Sequence record: NC_049947.1
Strand: one strand, 5' to 3'
Origin: Escherichia phage 1H12
DNA: 46,703 bases
Of the stretch, positions 23,469 to 28,770 are shown in pieces (the stretch's first letter is position 1; each line of letters begins with the position of its first letter). The position numbers were made by a program, and so were the translations under genes. The notes under the pieces are model-generated. The model saw only the letters and a list, made by a program, of their open reading frames with translations. It did not search any database and was not told the DNA's origin.

Positions 23469-24292
23469 CTTTCTTCCCTCTGCACCGCTGACGGTCGATG
23501 AGCCACAAAAGGGCGTTCATCGTCAGTAATAATGCTTTCTTCCGAGCCGTTAAGTGTGACATGGCGCAGTACGCCGCTAAAAGCCAGCTCTAGGTTCTCG
23601 GCTGTAAAAGTGGTGTCTGTCGGCCCGCTTGCCAGGACGGTGCCTTTGACCATGACCGTATAATCGCAAAATGTCGTGACGGATCCGAGATTGTGTGTTG
23701 AGACAAGCATCGTTTTGCCTTCCGCGCGTAACTCCCTCAACAGGCTGATGATTTTGGCTTCGGTTTTCACATCAACGCCAGTAAAAGGTTCATCCAGCAG
23801 GATCACATCACCCTGCTGTGCAATCGCTCTCGCCAGAAAGACGCGTTTCTTTTGTCCACCGGAAAGCTCGCCGATTTGTCGATGGCGAAAATTCACCATA
23901 TCGACACGTTCCAGCGCATCGGTGACAATTTGACGATCCCTCTTTTTGGCGATACGCAACATACCCATATGCCCATAGCGGCCCATCATCACCACATCTT
24001 CCACCAGTACAGGAAATGACCAGTCAACATCTTCTGACTGAGGGACGTAGGCAACCAGGTTTTTCTGTAACGCCTGTCGCGTGGGAATACCCAGAACAGA
24101 TATCTTTCCGCTGGTCAGACGCACAAATCCCATAATCGCTTTAAACAACGTCGATTTTCCGGAACCGTTTACCCCAACCAGAGCGGCAATAGATCCACTT
24201 GGTACTGTGAAGGATGCATCGCGCAGTGCTGTGTGCCCGTTACGCCAGGTGACAGTAACATCATTAACGACAATGCCTGCAGATTGCATCAT
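23465..24292 (-). CDS. sitB: manganese/iron ABC transporter ATP-binding protein SitB
   Basis: 275-aa ORF with Walker [10 protein letters not shown] and an ABC signature motif. Confidence 0.9.
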
Positions 24293-25206
24293 TATTTCTC
24301 CCTTTTCCCAGCTTTAATTCCCTGTACCAGCGTACTGGTAGTAACCTTAAGAAGGTCGATATACGTCGGTACCGGGCCGTTTTCTGTGCTCAGGGAATCG
24401 ACATAGAGCACACCGCCGTAGTGTGCGCCGGTTTCACGCGCAACCTGACGCGCTGGTTTATCGGAAATCGTACTCTCGCTAAAGACTGCCGGGATATGAT
24501 TTTTCTTAACTATATCAACAACCTTACGTACCTGCTGCGGTGTTCCTTGTTGATCGGCATTAATCGGCCACAGATAAAGCTCTTTTAGCCCCAAATCGCG
24601 TGCGAGATAAGAAAAAGCCCCTTCACTGGTGACCATCCATCGCTGATTCTCAGGGAGTTCCGTAATCTGCTTACGCAGGGGGGCAAGGGTTTGGGTAATC
24701 TTGGCTTTATAAGTATCGGCATTGCGTTGGTAGGTTTGTGCATTTGCCGGATCGTATTTTATCAACGCATCACGAATATTATCGACGTAAATCAGAGCAT
24801 TATCTGGCGACATCCATGCATGGGGGTTAGGTTTGCCCTCATAGGGTCCTTCGGTGATCCCTACAGGCGTCACACCCGAAGAGACAATTACTTCTGGAAC
24901 CCCATTGAGATGCTGGTAAAAGCGTTGGAACCACAATTCCAGATTCATACCATTGGCGAGAATCAGTTGTGCCCCCTGCGCACGTTTAATATCGCCAGGG
25001 GTAGGCTGATACTCATGAATTTCTGCACCAGGCTTGGTTATGGATGAGACTTCTGCAGCATCTCCCGCCACGTTTTTGGCCATATCCGCGATGATGGTAA
25101 ATGTTGTAATGACCTTGAATTTTTCAGTTGCACTTGCCTGAAATGCGATCGAGCAGGTGAGTGCGAGCCCCCCCAAGAGCATGGTTACTTTTTTTATCGA
25201 GTGCAT
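24292..25206 (-). CDS. sitA: manganese/iron ABC transporter periplasmic substrate-binding protein SitA
   Basis: 304-aa ORF with an N-terminal signal peptide; TroA/PsaA-like metal-binding protein. Confidence 0.85.
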
Positions 25207-25238
25207 AATTTAGTACCTATAGTGAGCAAAATTAGAAC

Positions 25239-25260
25239 AAACATAGCAACGGCTATGTTT
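25239..25260 (-). promoter_or_regulatory. putative MntR box in the sitA promoter
   Basis: Near-perfect inverted repeat AACATAGC-aacg-GCTATGTT 33-54 bp upstream of the sitA start, resembling the MntR operator as recalled. Confidence 0.6.
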
Positions 25261-25280
25261 TATAGCACAGCCTATACAAA

Positions 25281-25299
25281 ATGAAAATGATTATCATTA
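25281..25299 (-). promoter_or_regulatory. putative Fur box in the sitA promoter
   Basis: tgaaaatgattatcattag matches the Fur 19-mer consensus GATAATGATAATCATTATC at about 16 of 19 positions. Confidence 0.6.
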
Positions 25300-25607
25300 G
25301 CAGCTTTGAGGCCCAAAACAGGGATTAGGTTGTTTCCTGCTGGCGACGCGTTATTGAGGAAAAAAGTAAGGCAGCTAGTAGGCTTTGAAATAACGTTTTG
25401 CGGTTGGCTGATGCAATTTCGAGAGTGCATGTATTGAATGATTTCTAGCCGTTACTGATTTTCGTATTTTTTGTATGGGAGGATTTGCACCTCCCCCCAC
25501 CGAGCCTCCATGACTTTACTCCACTGTCTCTAGGGCTGCTGTGTGCCAGGAGCGGAAGCAGGGGGGGCCAGAGACTCCTTAAAAGTTGATAGCTCGTTTT
25601 GCAGGGA

Positions 25608-25690
25608 GACTTACACGGTAAGCGTTATTCCGAAGAGCTTAAAATTGAAGCAGTCAAACGGGTTGTTGAGCGTGTTTATGCGCTGCCATC
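25608..25690 (+). mobile_element. possible remnant of an IS3-family transposase orfA (N-terminal fragment only)
   Basis: Frame translating to GKRYSEELKIEAVKRVVERV resembles the conserved N-terminus of IS3-family OrfA; no intact ORF or inverted repeats found. Confidence 0.3.
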
Positions 25691-25893
25691 TGATTAATCG
25701 ACGGAAGCAGTTCCGTTTGGTCTATGATGCAGTTGTCCGGCAGGCGCTCTGTGACGCAAAAGAACGATAGGAGTAGCATTGAAGTGAACGAGGTTATGCT
25801 TGTCTTATATTATCCTCTATTTTAAAAACATCAGCTGGTTGTGTAAGAGTTTTTATTGTTTTATCTTGTTGACTTTGCTTTTATGAAAACAGA

Positions 25894-26664
25894 GTGATTG
25901 ATACAATGAAAACCTTAAGTGGGAAAGAGTTTAGGAAATTATTTAATCGTTATGAGACAGGATTCTATCTAAGTGAGTTTGAATACTTAAAGGACTTTGA
26001 TCCTTTGTTTCCTGAATGCGTAGGGAAAGAATTAAAGTTGGGTTATAAACGAAAAGTTGATGTATGGTGCGAAGAGGATGCTGCGCTATATGCAGAATTT
26101 ATAGCTACAAAAGAAAGGCTGAAAAGAGGCCGGTTAATCCTAAAAATAAACCAAGTGTGGTCGCGTGTATATCCTGCTTATATTTATGCAATTGAAGAAA
26201 GAATAAATGTCAGGGCAAAGGGGAGAGAGTCATTTAAGTATGAAACTGTGCAAGAAAAACAATGTAAACTTTCCATAATGTTAGATGGTCTGAAAGACCT
26301 TGAATGTGAAATAGCTATGATTTCAAGTGAGTTTGAAATTGAAAAACACTCTATGCACTATTTTTATATGATTTTTGATATTGAACGCTATATAAATGAC
26401 TGCAGTTACTTTGTTTTTTCTGCTGCTAAAGTTGTTAAAGGCGTGATTCAATGCATTGGTTACATTGACAAAAATAACAAAGCAAGTTGCGATGAATTTT
26501 ATTCAGGCAGCTATGAATGCTTGGATGATGATCAGGAAACACTGAACTATTTAAATGAATCATGCGCAGAGGGTATAGACGCTGATAAAGATCTCATCAG
26601 GAAGAATGAGTTATTAGCCTTATCCCTGAAGGAATTGTATCAACTTCTCGTTTCAAAAAAATAA
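25894..26664 (+). CDS. hypothetical protein (AT-rich orphan cargo gene, soluble, Cys-rich)
   Basis: 256-aa ORF in a low-GC island between the sit operon and attP; GTG at 25894 or ATG at 25906; no family recognised. Confidence 0.6.
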   Translation: MIDTMKTLSGKEFRKLFNRYETGFYLSEFEYLKDFDPLFPECVGKELKLGYKRKVDVWCEEDAALYAEFIATKERLKRGRLILKINQVWSRVYPAYIYAIEERINVRAKGRESFKYETVQEKQCKLSIMLDGLKDLECEIAMISSEFEIEKHSMHYFYMIFDIERYINDCSYFVFSAAKVVKGVIQCIGYIDKNNKASCDEFYSGSYECLDDDQETLNYLNESCAEGIDADKDLIRKNELLALSLKELYQLLVSKK

Positions 26665-26990
26665 CAAGTAATACGGCGAGCGATATGACGTGCCATGGGA
26701 TATCCGCACCCAGCAGCATGTTGTCTCCACGATGTCCGCAGTTCGCTCATAATAGACATTCACTACAGTTATAGTAGAAGGTATGCATGCTGCTGAGTGG
26801 GGAAAGTGTGAAAGAAAAGAAGACAGCTGCTTTGTTTGTCGTCACGTTTATCTTCATTGGCTATGCAAGTCGTAATACAAGGCGGGACAAAACTGAGACA
26901 CATAAGGCCTCGCAATGGCTTGCAAGGCCACACATGTATTGAGATGTTAATAAAATGTAGACTTGTAATTTTGATATAAATGGTAGAGAA

Positions 26991-27003
26991 AATCTTTCCC
27001 CAA
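26991..27003 (+). repeat. arm-type repeat (ctttccccaaaa), putative Int arm-binding site on the P arm
   Basis: Copy of the ttccccaaaa motif that recurs three times in tandem next to int. Confidence 0.45.
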
Positions 27004-27123
27004 AATAAAAACGAACGTCAATGAAATCAAACGGTTGAATAAAGTTGATTTTGGCTAATACAAAGACAAGAAAATAATATTTATGATTAAATATCAGCGA
27101 GTTGAATACATAATTTTTATATA

Positions 27124-27288
27124 CTGTTACGCCATATGGGCTGGACTGAAGCCGCAGACCTGATTGTTAAAGGTATGGAAGGCGCAATCAACGCCAAGAC
27201 TGTAACCTATGACTTCGAACGTCTGATGGAAGGCGCTAAATTGCTGAAATGTAGCGAGTTTGGCGACGCGATCATCAAGAACATGTAA
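27124..27288 (+). other. icd: attP core region carrying the 3'-terminal ~55 codons of host icd (isocitrate dehydrogenase)
   Basis: Translates to [53 protein letters not shown], the Icd C-terminus with a few substitutions; no upstream icd sequence, so it is a phage-borne att fragment. Confidence 0.8.
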
Positions 27289-27310
27289 TCACTACATGTG
27301 TTAAATATTT

Positions 27311-27335
27311 AAACGGGCGTGTTATACGCCCGTTG
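27311..27335 (+). terminator. icd-type rho-independent terminator carried within attP
   Basis: Hairpin gggcgtgtta-tacgcccg followed by ttgtttt, directly after the icd stop. Confidence 0.6.
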
Positions 27336-27351
27336 TTTTATGATGATGTAA

Positions 27352-27392
27352 AATCTTCCCCAAAACTTTCCCCAAAACCCTTCCCCAAAACT
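27352..27392 (+). repeat. three tandem arm-type repeats (cttccccaaaac), putative Int arm-binding sites on the P' arm
   Basis: cttccccaaaac ttt ccccaaaac cc ttccccaaaac immediately next to the int gene. Confidence 0.6.
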
Positions 27393-27401
27393 GGCTATTT
27401 T

Positions 27402-28544
27402 CTATGCTGTTTTGATATCTACGATAACCCAGTCTTTACCACGATCATCATTGTATCGGTCGGTCATTTTTCTGGATTTATGGCCTAACAACTTTTGCGT
27501 ATCCAGACCCTGTTCCCGATATAACCGTTCTGACAGAGATCGCTGCTCATGAAATGTGGGCGCAGTTCCTTGCTCCCATTTTATGCCACATTTTTCCCTG
27601 GCCTTTTTAAAAGCCGTTGTCAGAGTATTTGCAGAAACCTGGTCTCCTCTGTTTGCTTGAGAGGTAGTGTGACGGTAATGGACCAGATATTTACTAACAA
27701 CAGCATCCCTGCACTGAGATATAACTTCACGAAGGGTAATATTCAGAGCATCGCATTTCAGGTTAAGCGGAATAGCAAGTTTTGAACCGGTTTTTTCCTG
27801 AGTAATGTGCAACATGTCGTCCCAGATATCAGAGAATTTCAAATTGCAGATATCACCTAAACGTTGTCCAGTAACAAGAGCAAGTAGCATGCCGCATTTT
27901 AAATAGGGCTGCCGTCTGCTTACGCTTTCAAATATTGCCTGCCATTCGGGCAGTGACAATCTTTGGCGGTTTACTCGATTTCGCGGTTGTTTTGTTGCCT
28001 GCGCTGGGTTAAATCCTGGCGGAACATGTCCTGCGTGTTGTGCTTCTTTGAAGACGTCGATCAACACCATTCTCACGACTTGCGCCATCCTGTTATGACC
28101 TTCAGCCTTTACAGCATCAATTATTTCGGCAATATCAAGTGCGGTAATATCCTTGAGGTGTTGCATTCCACAATGCTCACGGAAAAGACGAATGGGTTTG
28201 CCTTTTTGCCGATAGGAGTTGGGTCTTAGTTCATTATGTTGCAGCCTGTCCTCCTGGATAGAAATATATTTATCAAGCCATTCTGTCACCGTAATTTCTG
28301 AGCGCCTGCCTTTCATTCTTTCCAGACGCTCATTGACGCTTAATATTTGTCGGGTACGTTGTTCAGCAATAATGGTATTTGCTTCAGTAGCAACTTGTTT
28401 TGCTTCATTCTCATCAGTTCCTAAGCTATGAAAACGACCGGATAGTGGATGTTTGTATTGCCAATATACCTTTCCGGTTCGCTTATCTAATTTGCAATAT
28501 AAATTGGGTATAGAGATTTTGTGAGATCGGGGTCTAGCAGCCAT
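27402..28544 (-). CDS. int: tyrosine site-specific integrase (icd-targeting)
   Basis: 380-aa ORF with a C-terminal tyrosine recombinase catalytic region (HxxR...Y), adjacent to attP. Confidence 0.9.
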   Translation of the reverse strand: MAARPRSHKISIPNLYCKLDKRTGKVYWQYKHPLSGRFHSLGTDENEAKQVATEANTIIAEQRTRQILSVNERLERMKGRRSEITVTEWLDKYISIQEDRLQHNELRPNSYRQKGKPIRLFREHCGMQHLKDITALDIAEIIDAVKAEGHNRMAQVVRMVLIDVFKEAQHAGHVPPGFNPAQATKQPRNRVNRQRLSLPEWQAIFESVSRRQPYLKCGMLLALVTGQRLGDICNLKFSDIWDDMLHITQEKTGSKLAIPLNLKCDALNITLREVISQCRDAVVSKYLVHYRHTTSQANRGDQVSANTLTTAFKKAREKCGIKWEQGTAPTFHEQRSLSERLYREQGLDTQKLLGHKSRKMTDRYNDDRGKDWVIVDIKTA

Positions 28545-28770
28545 CAGCGATTATCCGTTGGAGTTTTGGGTTTGCGTTTATTGGGAGTTGCGGTTCTGCA
28601 AGCGTTCCTACAAAACGGGAATTTCGGTCAATCATCCAGTAGCGACCAACTTTTATAGCGGGTGGGGCCATCATTTTCCCTTGCGCGTATTTTTTCAGAA
28701 CTCGCTCACTTGGTGCTAAGTCCCCAAATTCTTCTTTAGCCCAGTCCTGTAAAGTGATTAGTCGAGACAT
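28534..28770 (-). CDS. xis: excisionase
   Basis: 78-aa ORF overlapping the int start; small basic DNA-binding protein at the canonical position. Confidence 0.75.
   Translation of the reverse strand: MSRLITLQDWAKEEFGDLAPSERVLKKYAQGKMMAPPAIKVGRYWMIDRNSRFVGTLAEPQLPINANPKLQRIIADGC

What the first reader, a model, noticed from the sequence alone, without database searches (positions are those of the whole stretch)
26990..27400. attP contains the 3' end of host icd flanked by repeated arm-type motifs
Positions 27124..27288 encode the last ~55 residues of isocitrate dehydrogenase with its stop and terminator, but no upstream icd sequence. This is the arrangement of phages that integrate into the 3' end of icd and rebuild the gene end with phage sequence. 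The few substitutions (for example ...LMEGAK...IIKNM versus host ...LMDGAK...IIENM as recalled) would become icd 3'-end polymorphisms in a lysogen. The motif ttccccaaaac occurs three times in tandem at 27352..27392 and once at 26991..27003, consistent with Int arm-binding sites.
Basis: partly seen in the sequence, partly recalled or inferred. Interest (0 to 1): 0.5.

Follow-up and report, generated by a model that had tools for sequence, protein, structure and literature searches.

The report
Phage 21-type attP inside icd
This is the attachment site of a phage 21-like lambdoid phage, which inserts into the end of the host isocitrate dehydrogenase gene and carries a spare copy of that gene end so the gene keeps working; the arrangement has been known since the 1990s, so the finding is correct but ordinary.

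Summary
The window is a complete cos-to-cos lambdoid phage genome. Its Int is 376/380 identical to phage 21 Int, and its Xis is identical (78/78).

Positions 27125-27341 (217 bp) copy the last 164 nt of E. coli icd plus the icd terminator. TTCCCCAAAA occurs exactly four times in 46.7 kb (0.09 expected): once at 26996 and three times in tandem at 27356, 27368 and 27381, next to int.

Lysogen junctions show that the prophage is this genome opened at 27125. attL is host icd fused to the phage-borne end. attR keeps the displaced host end. Seven attL/attR pairs bound the crossover to 27125-27134.

In Int-homologue loci from other Enterobacterales, a terminator followed by two to four (usually three) tandem repeats lies between icd and int. 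The repeat sequence changes with the Int arm-binding domain. A single copy sits about 130 bp left of the core, followed by an IHF consensus.

This phage causes no amino-acid change, only silent and non-coding differences.

GenBank records M61865 and OL657228 already annotate these features.

The parts
26994..27005 (+). P-arm arm-type site (dodecamer CTTTCCCCAAAA; 10-nt core at 26996-27005), 129 nt left of the crossover region
   Evidence: Exact copy of the motif. A class-specific copy lies at the same distance (-130) in five of the six other P arms compared, which are otherwise diverged: E. coli N1420, K-12 e14, Providencia L035, Proteus L048 and L019. The sixth (L023) has a different motif.
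27025..27037 (+). IHF consensus site (AATCAAACGGTTG), H1-like
   Evidence: One of only 3 exact WATCAANNNNTTR matches in the window. An exact consensus lies at the same offset, about -88 (within one base in L035), in the same five other P arms. Binding was not tested.
27092..27104 (+). IHF-like site (TATCAGCGAGTTG, 1 mismatch), H2-like, next to the core
   Evidence: The same position is a perfect consensus (TATCAATGAGTTG) in the N1420 prophage P arm. Weak evidence.
27125..27134 (.). Crossover (core/overlap) region, TGTTACGCCA; corresponds to icd codons 362-365
   Evidence: Phage/host identity starts at 27125. In 7 lysogens, attL and attR are identical here. They first differ at 27135 in NC101 (21-type Int), PAR and K-12 e14, at 27141 in N1420, and at 27192-27201 in D8, BA22372 and WP8. 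The exact cleavage positions were not determined.
27124..27288 (+). Promoterless icd 3' end (54 codons plus stop). It becomes the end of the functional icd in attL.
   Evidence: attL of lysogen WP8 is identical to the window from 27125 onward.
27312..27341 (+). icd intrinsic terminator (10-bp stem, then T tract). The homology to the host ends at 27341.
   Evidence: (I9). The hairpin is the exact reverse complement of the host and phage 21 hairpin, meaning the loop is inverted.
27354..27390 (+). P'-arm: three tandem arm-type dodecamers (YYTTCCCCAAAA) at 27354-27365, 27366-27377 and 27379-27390
   Evidence: The same stretch is annotated in phage 21 (OL657228) as 'attP P1P2P3, consensus YYTTCCCCAAAA'. 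Tandem repeats (usually three) occupy the same place beside int in 46 loci from other genera, and their sequence tracks the Int class.
27402..28544 (-). int: lambda-family heterobivalent tyrosine integrase, phage 21 type
   Evidence: PF09003 Arm-DNA-bind_1 E=1.7e-28 and PF00589. Full-length match to lambda Int PDB 1z1b, E=1e-55, with R, K, H, R, H and Y conserved. 376/380 identical to phage 21 Int.
28534..28770 (-). xis: excisionase, overlapping the start of int
   Evidence: PF07825. 78/78 identical to phage 21 Xis.

Best explanation
Positions about 26994-27390 are the roughly 400-bp attP of a phage 21-type integration module carried by a lambda-like, sitABCD-bearing phage.

Int is a lambda-family tyrosine recombinase with a separate N-terminal arm-binding domain. 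It recombines a short core at 27125-27134 with the identical sequence at codons 362-365 of the host icd gene.

The break falls inside an essential-pathway gene. To compensate, the phage carries the remaining 164 nt of icd and its terminator (27125-27341) to the right of the core. After integration:
- attL reads host icd 5' part + phage-borne 3' end + terminator + P' arm + int, so icd stays intact.
- attR reads P arm + core + the displaced host 3' end, a pseudogene like K-12 icdC.

The TTCCCCAAAA dodecamers are the arm-type sites bound by the Int N-domain, one in the P arm and three in tandem in the P' arm. IHF site(s) in the P arm supply the bend that lets arm-bound Int reach the core.

Shown here: the homology, the junction structure in lysogens, the crossover bound, the Int domain content, and the conservation and covariation of the repeats. 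Inferred: physical binding of Int and IHF, and the exact cleavage positions.
For: - The window is a complete free phage genome. It has lambda cos ends at both termini and is collinear with the 46,702-bp phage record LR595860.
- Int/Xis/attP are 98% identical in DNA to phage 21 (M61865, OL657228). Int is 376/380 identical and Xis 78/78.
- Int has the PF09003 arm-binding domain and the full catalytic set.
- In lysogen WP8-S17-ESBL-12, attL and attR lie 46,701 bp apart (coordinates), matching the window's 46,703 bp. Its attL equals host icd up to 27124 and the window from 27125 on, at all 8 marker positions. Its attR equals the window's P arm and then the host alleles.
- In seven attL/attR pairs, the two junctions never differ before 27135.
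- 1624 of 5426 complete E. coli genomes carry this icd-end/P'-arm/int arrangement.
- Among 80 Int-homologue loci from other Enterobacterales, 46 show an icd end 104-173 nt from the int stop (41 with full icd, 5 with the fragment only). In those, the spacer is a terminator hairpin followed by tandem repeats, usually three.
- The repeat class (TTCCCCAAAA, GTTATCAAAA, TTCTGCAAAA, TCAGTAAAA) follows the Int N-domain. The 22 loci with TTCCCCAAAA-type repeats have N-domains at least 74% identical to the window's, and there it is the best-conserved Int domain. Every locus assigned another repeat class is at or below 63%.
- The P arm holds one class-matched copy at -130 and an IHF consensus at about -88 in five other P arms that have otherwise diverged.
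Against:
- Motif class and Int N-domain identity are also correlated with overall phylogeny. The covariation is therefore supportive, not proof.
- The P' sites lie about 222 bp from the core, far more than in lambda (own recollection, about 50 bp). No IHF consensus with one mismatch or fewer lies between them, so how the P' arm is brought to the core is unexplained.
- No clear inverted core-type sites could be picked out by eye around 27125-27134.
Confidence: 0.93

Rival explanations
1. The repeats are not Int arm sites. They serve another purpose beside int, such as binding sites for Xis or another regulator, or a signal at the end of the int transcript.
For: No binding data exist here. The repeats sit immediately downstream of the int stop codon, where 3'-end regulatory elements could also lie. 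The phage 21 record labels them simply 'integration site attP'.
Against: A fourth copy lies about 360 bp away on the other side of the core. It keeps a conserved distance in P arms that share little else, and it always has the same sequence class as a P' repeat class. Int carries a lambda-type arm-binding domain, and divergence in that domain tracks the repeat class. The layout of one to two P sites and three tandem P' sites is that of lambda.
Confidence: 0.05
2. The phage enters icd mainly by RecA-dependent homologous recombination across the 217-bp icd homology. The 'core' would then be only an apparent feature.
For: 217 bp at 90-96% identity is enough for homologous recombination. The icd fragments of different phages are mosaics of host alleles. 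For example, the phage 21 sequence is 100% identical over 841 bp to the attR of strain D8, which suggests occasional homologous exchange.
Against: In all seven lysogens the switch between phage and host markers lies at the far left of the homology. It is never detected right of 27134 in the three most informative pairs. Homologous crossovers would be spread along the 217 bp. The same boundary (Icd residue about 362) appears in tandem junctions in Proteus, although the two in Providencia and Erwinia align from residues 357 and 359.
Confidence: 0.02
3. The segment is not a working attP. It would be a chromosomal scar, either an attR or a tandem-prophage junction, captured in an assembly.
For: attP-like junctions (P arm + icd fragment + P' arm + int) do occur inside chromosomes where two prophages sit in tandem, for example E. 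coli FXCREC028 and Proteus columbae.
Against: The window starts and ends with lambda cos termini and contains no host genes flanking the site. At least nine independently sequenced phage records carry the identical 1-kb region. A prophage of the same length, permuted at 27125, exists in WP8.
Confidence: 0.01

Closest known systems
Coliphage 21 attP-int-xis (GenBank M61865, AF017626, OL657228; Campbell laboratory work, e.g. Wang et al. 1997, J Bacteriol 179:5705, listed in the references of PMC12803456)
   Same: The whole 1-kb region is 98.1% identical. Int is 376/380 identical and Xis 78/78. Both have the same 165-nt icd pseudogene, the same terminator position, and the same four TTCCCCAAAA dodecamers. 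It targets the same site in icd.
   Different: There are 15 nucleotide differences inside the 217-bp homology. Two of them (27127 T/C, 27129 A/G) lie inside the 10-bp crossover region, giving TGTTACGCCA here against TGCTGCGCCA in phage 21. The terminator loop is inverted. The rest of the genome is a different lambda-like mosaic: 46.7 kb against 42.9 kb.
Defective prophage e14 of E. coli K-12 (attL in icd, attR at icdC)
   Same: Same target and same crossover region. K-12 attL and attR share only ATGCTGCGCCA, which corresponds to 27124-27134. It uses the same strategy of supplying a replacement icd end plus terminator. Its layout also matches: three tandem repeats right of the terminator, one repeat at -130 in the P arm, and an IHF consensus at -88.
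   Different: Its arm repeat is GTTATCAAAA, not TTCCCCAAAA. IntE is about 61% identical in the N-domain and 64% in the catalytic domain. The e14 replacement end changes one Icd residue (E to D in LMDGAK), while this phage's changes none. e14 has cargo genes between attL and int.
Bacteriophage lambda attP/Int/Xis/IHF intasome
   Same: Int is homologous over its full length, including the arm-binding domain and the catalytic residues. Xis is adjacent and overlaps int. Arm-type sites lie on both sides of the core, with three in tandem in the P' arm next to int. An IHF consensus lies in the P arm. The gene order of tail fibres, b-region morons, attP, int and xis matches, at about 27 kb from cos.
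   Different: The target is inside a protein-coding gene rather than the intergenic gal-bio attB. attP is about 400 bp rather than about 240 bp (own recollection for lambda), because 217 bp of host gene lie between the core and the P' sites. Only one clear P-arm site is present. The arm motif is unrelated in sequence.
Integrative elements that target the 3' ends of tRNA or tmRNA genes and carry a replacement 3' end (e.g. P4, P22, HP1; own knowledge)
   Same: The logic is the same. The crossover lies inside a gene, and the element carries a duplicate of the downstream part so the gene is restored at one junction.
   Different: Here the restored part is 54 codons of a protein-coding gene plus its terminator, rather than a few dozen nucleotides of an RNA gene.

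Membership tests
Phage 21-type icd-targeting integration module | Integrase orthologous to phage 21 Int, with adjacent Xis | tested here: met
   Int 376/380 and Xis 78/78 identical to OL657228. DNA is 98.1% identical to M61865 and OL657228.
Phage 21-type icd-targeting integration module | attP contains a promoterless copy of the last about 165 nt of icd, abutting the crossover point | tested here: met
   Homology spans 27125-27341. 53/54 residues are identical to Icd. It is annotated as an icd pseudogene in M61865 and OL657228.
Phage 21-type icd-targeting integration module | Prophages sit in icd with an intact icd at attL and a displaced icd 3' remnant at attR | tested here: met
   Junctions from WP8, D8, N1420, NC101 and BA22372. 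Icd at attL is the same protein as in an unoccupied strain.
Phage 21-type icd-targeting integration module | Repeated YYTTCCCCAAAA dodecamers at both ends of attP | tested here: met
   Four exact copies against 0.09 expected, at the positions annotated in phage 21.
Phage 21-type icd-targeting integration module | Int binds the dodecamers and needs them for recombination | not testable with these tools
   Only indirect support is available: positional conservation and covariation with the Int N-domain.
Lambda-family heterobivalent tyrosine integrases | N-terminal arm-type DNA-binding domain | tested here: met
   PF09003, E=1.7e-28, residues 1-71. It aligns with lambda Int from residue 4.
Lambda-family heterobivalent tyrosine integrases | Catalytic residues R-K-H-R-H-Y | tested here: met
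   All six align with lambda R212, K235, H308, R311, H333 and Y342 in the 1z1b alignment.
Lambda-family heterobivalent tyrosine integrases | IHF-bent arms on both sides of the core | tested here: inconclusive
   The P arm has an exact IHF consensus at 27025-27037, conserved in position across relatives, and a second near-consensus at 27092-27104. No site with one mismatch or fewer lies in the 222 bp between the core and the P' sites.
e14-type att site | Arm repeats of the GTTATCAAAA class, recognised by IntE | tested here: not met
   The window has no TTATCAAAA copies in the att region. Its repeats are TTCCCCAAAA. It shares the core with e14, but not the arm specificity.

The most novel reading that the evidence does not exclude
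The icd-targeting Int family may be partitioned by two independent specificity layers.

The first layer is an arm-site code. At least four repeat classes share one core, which allows different phages to stack in tandem at icd without excising each other.

The second layer is two natural alleles of the crossover region itself: TGTTACGCCA in this phage and TGCTGCGCCA in phage 21 and e14. These mirror a synonymous Leu-codon polymorphism (TTA or CTG) in E. coli icd.

Position 27129 falls inside any 6-8-bp overlap that fits in 27125-27134, and lambda-type recombination needs overlap identity. This phage would therefore integrate efficiently only into TTA-allele hosts, and phage 21 only into CTG-allele hosts. 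That would make them natural site-affinity variants.

All seven attL/attR pairs examined carry matching alleles: 2 TTA/TTA and 5 CTG/CTG. Both alleles are common in unoccupied icd genes and in attR sites: 5 TTA against 18 non-TTA in a spread sample.
Probability: 0.3. Interest if true: 0.35.

Novelty: already known. Interest (0 to 1): 0.12.

Why it matters
This is a clean, well-preserved example of how a temperate phage can use an essential-pathway gene as its landing site without harming the host. It also explains why the 3' end of icd is unusually polymorphic in E. coli: about 30% of complete E. coli genomes carry this module at icd.

For annotation, three points are useful:
- The 50-54-codon 'isocitrate dehydrogenase' ORF in such phages is part of attP, not a gene.
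- The icd end in reference strain K-12 is itself prophage-derived.
- The true attP spans about 400 bp, not only the three repeats labelled attP in the phage 21 record.

None of this changes current understanding.

Tried and rejected
- **Primary papers.** I tried to read Wang et al. 1997 (PubMed 9294425, PMC179457) and Mehta et al. 2004 (PMC331406). Neither is held. What I say about the 'repeated dodecamers' and the minimal attP of 366-418 bp is my own recollection of the 1997 abstract, not a checked citation. It fits the 397-bp span measured here.
- **Literature searches.** Searches on phage 21, icd and attP gave only incidental mentions.
- **Prophage sRNA svsR.** I checked whether the svsR sRNA of an icd-integrated relative lies in this region. 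It does not; it lies in cI.
- **Rfam.** A scan of 26400-27700 gave nothing near any gathering score.
- **IHF sites in the P' arm.** I looked between the core and the P' sites and found none with one mismatch or fewer.
- **Core-type Int sites.** I tried to pick out inverted core-type Int sites by eye around 27125-27134. Only a weak ATAT...ATAT symmetry is visible, so no cleavage positions are claimed.
- **Degenerate inverted arm-like copy.** The copy at 27049-27058 (TTAGCCAAAA on the - strand, 2 mismatches) is too weak to call a site.
- **ORF across the repeats.** ORF 27333-27488, which runs across the repeats, is treated as an artefact of the repeats.
- **Allele pairing.** Pairing attL and attR alleles genome-wide was not possible with the search tool. 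Only seven pairs were fetched by hand, so the allele-matching result is suggestive only.

Full report
**What is in the sequence.** The region reads, left to right:
- an AT-rich arm
- a 165-nt open frame at 27124-27288
- a G+C-rich hairpin followed by a T tract
- three tandem repeats
- the 3' end of a 380-codon ORF on the minus strand, 27402-28544

The frame translates to [54 protein letters not shown]. It is 53/54 identical to residues 363-416 of Icd from an E. coli strain whose icd is unoccupied (C21; BLASTP E=2e-36). A tblastn of full-length Icd against the window finds only this piece.

At the DNA level, identity to host icd begins at 27125 and ends at 27341. It covers the stop codon and the icd terminator hairpin at 27312-27334.

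TTCCCCAAAA occurs exactly four times in the 46.7-kb window, against 0.09 expected. All copies are on the + strand, at 26996, 27356, 27368 and 27381 (repeat family D1). The left copy lies at 26996-27005 and ends in T rather than C.

**What the window is.** It begins GGGGCGGCGACCT... and ends ...ACAGGTTACG, the lambda cohesive-end sequences. It is collinear to within one base with the 46,702-bp phage record LR595860. Eight other infant-gut 'Lambda' isolates share the identical 1-kb region. The paper describing that collection reports sitABCD on 70% of its lambda phages (PMC6969025). So the window is free phage DNA, and the site is a true attP rather than a chromosomal junction.

The attP-int-xis region is 98.1% identical to coliphage 21 (M61865, OL657228). 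Int is 376/380 identical and Xis 78/78. GenBank M61865 is titled 'Bacteriophage 21 isocitrate dehydrogenase (icd) pseudogene, excisionase (xis), and integrase (int) genes'. OL657228 annotates the icd-like pseudogene, the terminator, and the three repeats as 'attP ... P1P2P3; consensus YYTTCCCCAAAA'. [quoted passage not shown] It cites the primary work of Wang et al. 1997, Hill et al. 1989 and Brody & Hill 1988 (PMC12803456).

**The recombinase.** The minus-strand ORF has the lambda Arm-DNA-binding domain (PF09003, E=1.7e-28, residues 1-71) and the phage integrase catalytic domain. It aligns over its full length with lambda Int structures (1z1b, E=1e-55). The residues matching lambda R212, K235, H308, R311, H333 and Y342 are all conserved. 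An Exc-family excisionase overlaps its start. This is a heterobivalent, lambda-type Int that is expected to bind arm sites as well as a core.

**Integration products.** I looked for lysogens among 5,426 complete E. coli genomes. 1,624 carry the icd-end/P'-arm/int arrangement over at least 80% of a 1.5-kb query. About 1,460 carry the P arm next to an icd remnant.

In strain WP8-S17-ESBL-12 the two junctions are 46,701 bp apart (coordinates), against a window length of 46,703. So the prophage is this genome opened at attP. Its attL is host icd up to 27124 and then identical to the window at every position, through the P' repeats and int. Its attR is the window's P arm, followed by an icd remnant that differs from the window at 27201, 27264, 27267, 27291, 27310 and the three loop positions, and then by host iraM. 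All phage markers end up in the working icd and all host markers in the remnant, so the exchange lies left of 27201.

**Crossover bound.** Six further attL/attR pairs tighten this bound. The two junctions first differ at these positions:

| Lysogen | First attL/attR difference |
|---|---|
| N1420 | 27141 |
| NC101 (21-type Int) | 27135 |
| PAR | 27135 |
| K-12 e14 | 27135 |
| D8 | 27192 |
| BA22372 | 27195 |

Phage and host are unlike left of 27125. The crossover therefore lies in the 10 bp at 27125-27134 (TGTTACGCCA), which are icd codons 362-365. I could not determine the cleavage positions.

That is K-12 Icd. K-12 carries e14 in this same site, so its icd end is prophage-derived. K-12's displaced remnant icdC reads LMEGAK...GEAIIENM.

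Icd of the unoccupied strain C21 and of lysogens WP8, D8, N1420, NC101, BA22372 and PAR is one and the same protein, WP_000444487.1. Its last 53 residues equal the phage fragment. The phage's first codon (CTG) lies left of the crossover and is not transferred. So this phage introduces only silent and non-coding polymorphisms.

**Are the repeats arm sites?** A scan of one genome per species found 80 Int homologues (51-99% identical) across Enterobacterales. In 46 of them an icd end lies 104-173 nt from the int stop, with full-length icd in 41 and only the 3' fragment in 5. In these loci the spacer has the same plan: icd stop, terminator hairpin, then tandem repeats at 11-13-nt spacing, usually three and occasionally two or four.

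The repeat sequence falls into classes:
- TTCCCCAAAA, including some degenerate copies (Escherichia, Kosakonia, Buttiauxella, Proteus, Morganella, Edwardsiella, Pantoea and others)
- GTTATCAAAA (e14, Klebsiella, Xenorhabdus, Proteus mirabilis and others)
- TTCTGCAAAA (Xenorhabdus, Providencia, Serratia)
- TCAGTAAAA (Pectobacterium, Symbiopectobacterium)

The 22 loci with TTCCCCAAAA-type repeats have Int N-domains at least 74% identical to the window's (mean 82%). That is higher than for their core-binding (71%) or catalytic (74%) parts. Every locus assigned to another repeat class is at or below 63% in the N-domain, although their catalytic domains stay at 55-67%.

On the other side of the core, one class-matched copy lies at -130 from the crossover. 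An exact IHF consensus lies at about -88 (within one base in L035). Both features are present in the window, in the N1420 prophage, in e14, and in Providencia and Proteus junctions. A sixth P arm (L023) lacks them and carries a different motif.

Position is therefore conserved while sequence changes with the Int arm-binding domain, on both arms. That is what arm-type sites should look like. It also explains the known poor cross-excision between 21 and e14 despite their shared attB (my recollection of Wang et al. 1997). Binding itself remains untested.

**Anatomy of attP.**
- P1: 26994-27005
- IHF consensus: 27025-27037
- second IHF-like site: 27092-27104 (one mismatch here, perfect in N1420)
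- crossover region: 27125-27134
- icd end and terminator: to 27341
- P'1-P'3: 27354-27390
- int stop: 27402

The outermost dodecamers span 397 bp. The odd feature is the 222 bp between the core and P'1, with no recognisable IHF site. How that arm is folded back is not explained by anything I found.

**A point that may go beyond the literature.** The 10-bp crossover region exists in two versions, TGTTACGCCA (this phage) and TGCTGCGCCA (phage 21, e14). These mirror a synonymous TTA/CTG polymorphism in E. coli icd.

P arms 100% identical to the window occur with either version. In a spread sample of attR sites, 5 of 23 were TTA. Unoccupied icd genes show both alleles in roughly equal numbers in a spread sample. 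In all seven lysogens examined, attL and attR carry the same version: 2 TTA and 5 CTG.

Position 27129 must fall inside any 6-8-bp overlap that fits in 27125-27134. This is consistent with the usual need for overlap identity, and it hints at host-allele-specific integration. The sample is small and not corrected for shared ancestry, so I treat this as a hypothesis only.

**Verdict.** The finding is correct and well described, apart from the K-12 comparison. It describes the phage 21 attachment site, characterised in the 1990s and annotated in public records. The comparative results here extend that picture modestly: the 10-bp crossover bound, the arm-motif classes across Enterobacterales, and the conserved P1/IHF spacing.

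Noticed in passing
window 27312-27334: The icd terminator hairpin in the window (AACGGGCGTGTTATACGCCCGTT) is the exact reverse complement of the hairpin in host icd and in phage 21 (AACGGGCGTATAACACGCCCGTT). The three apparent SNPs at 27321, 27323 and 27325 are therefore one event, an inversion of the loop, probably by template switching within the palindrome.
   Followed up: partly
window 26898-26937, minus strand: A strong hairpin (17 pairs in two stacked helices, -23.5 kcal/mol, z = -5.0) lies just outside the P arm, on the strand that int is transcribed from. It is linked to int only while attP is intact and is separated from it in the prophage. That is the geometry of lambda's sib/tI retroregulator. 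Function not tested.
   Followed up: partly
window 24292-26664: The b-region left of attP carries sitA (24292-25206, minus strand; part of the sitABCD iron/manganese transporter moron) and a 256-codon ORF (25894-26664) with no Pfam match. The ORF is conserved next to attR in many E. coli lysogens as WP_000567449.1.
   Followed up: no
L005 (E. coli FXCREC028); L019 and L048 (Proteus columbae NZ_NGVR01000027.1); L035 and L036 (Providencia alcalifaciens): attP-like junctions occur inside chromosomes, indicating tandem prophages at icd. In Proteus and Providencia the neighbours are of different arm classes: a TTATCAAAA P arm next to a TTCCCCAAAA P' arm, and the reverse. So phages with the same core but different arm specificity stack at one site.
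   Followed up: partly
L090 (E. coli D8 attR) versus L001 (phage 21): Phage 21's P arm, icd fragment and terminator are 100% identical over 841 bp to the attR of strain D8 and several other strains. In those strains attL carries a different icd end. The icd fragments of these phages thus look like mosaics exchanged with host alleles, probably by occasional homologous recombination within the 217-bp homology.
   Followed up: partly
L096 (E. coli BA22372) and L097-L099 (strain PAR): Some icd-site elements are short remnants. BA22372 has about 11.3 kb between attL and attR, with IS1 and an mcrC-containing restriction cluster. PAR has about 29 kb, with an e14-like icd end at attL but a 21-type P arm at attR, suggesting a decayed or fused tandem array.
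   Followed up: no
L009 (contig labelled uncultured Sutterella sp.) and L011 (labelled Vagococcus sp. WN89Y): Both contigs carry an Enterobacterales-type icd next to a 21-type int with TTCCCCAAAA repeats. Int is 99% and 82% identical; icd is 83% and 86% identical in DNA to E. coli icd. These are most likely mis-binned or contaminating Enterobacterales DNA in those assemblies.
   Followed up: partly
L023 (Proteus penneri), P arm of the tandem junction: This P arm has neither TTCCCCAAAA nor TTATCAAAA. It contains two copies of CCCTACAAA, hinting at a further arm-specificity class among icd-targeting phages.
   Followed up: no
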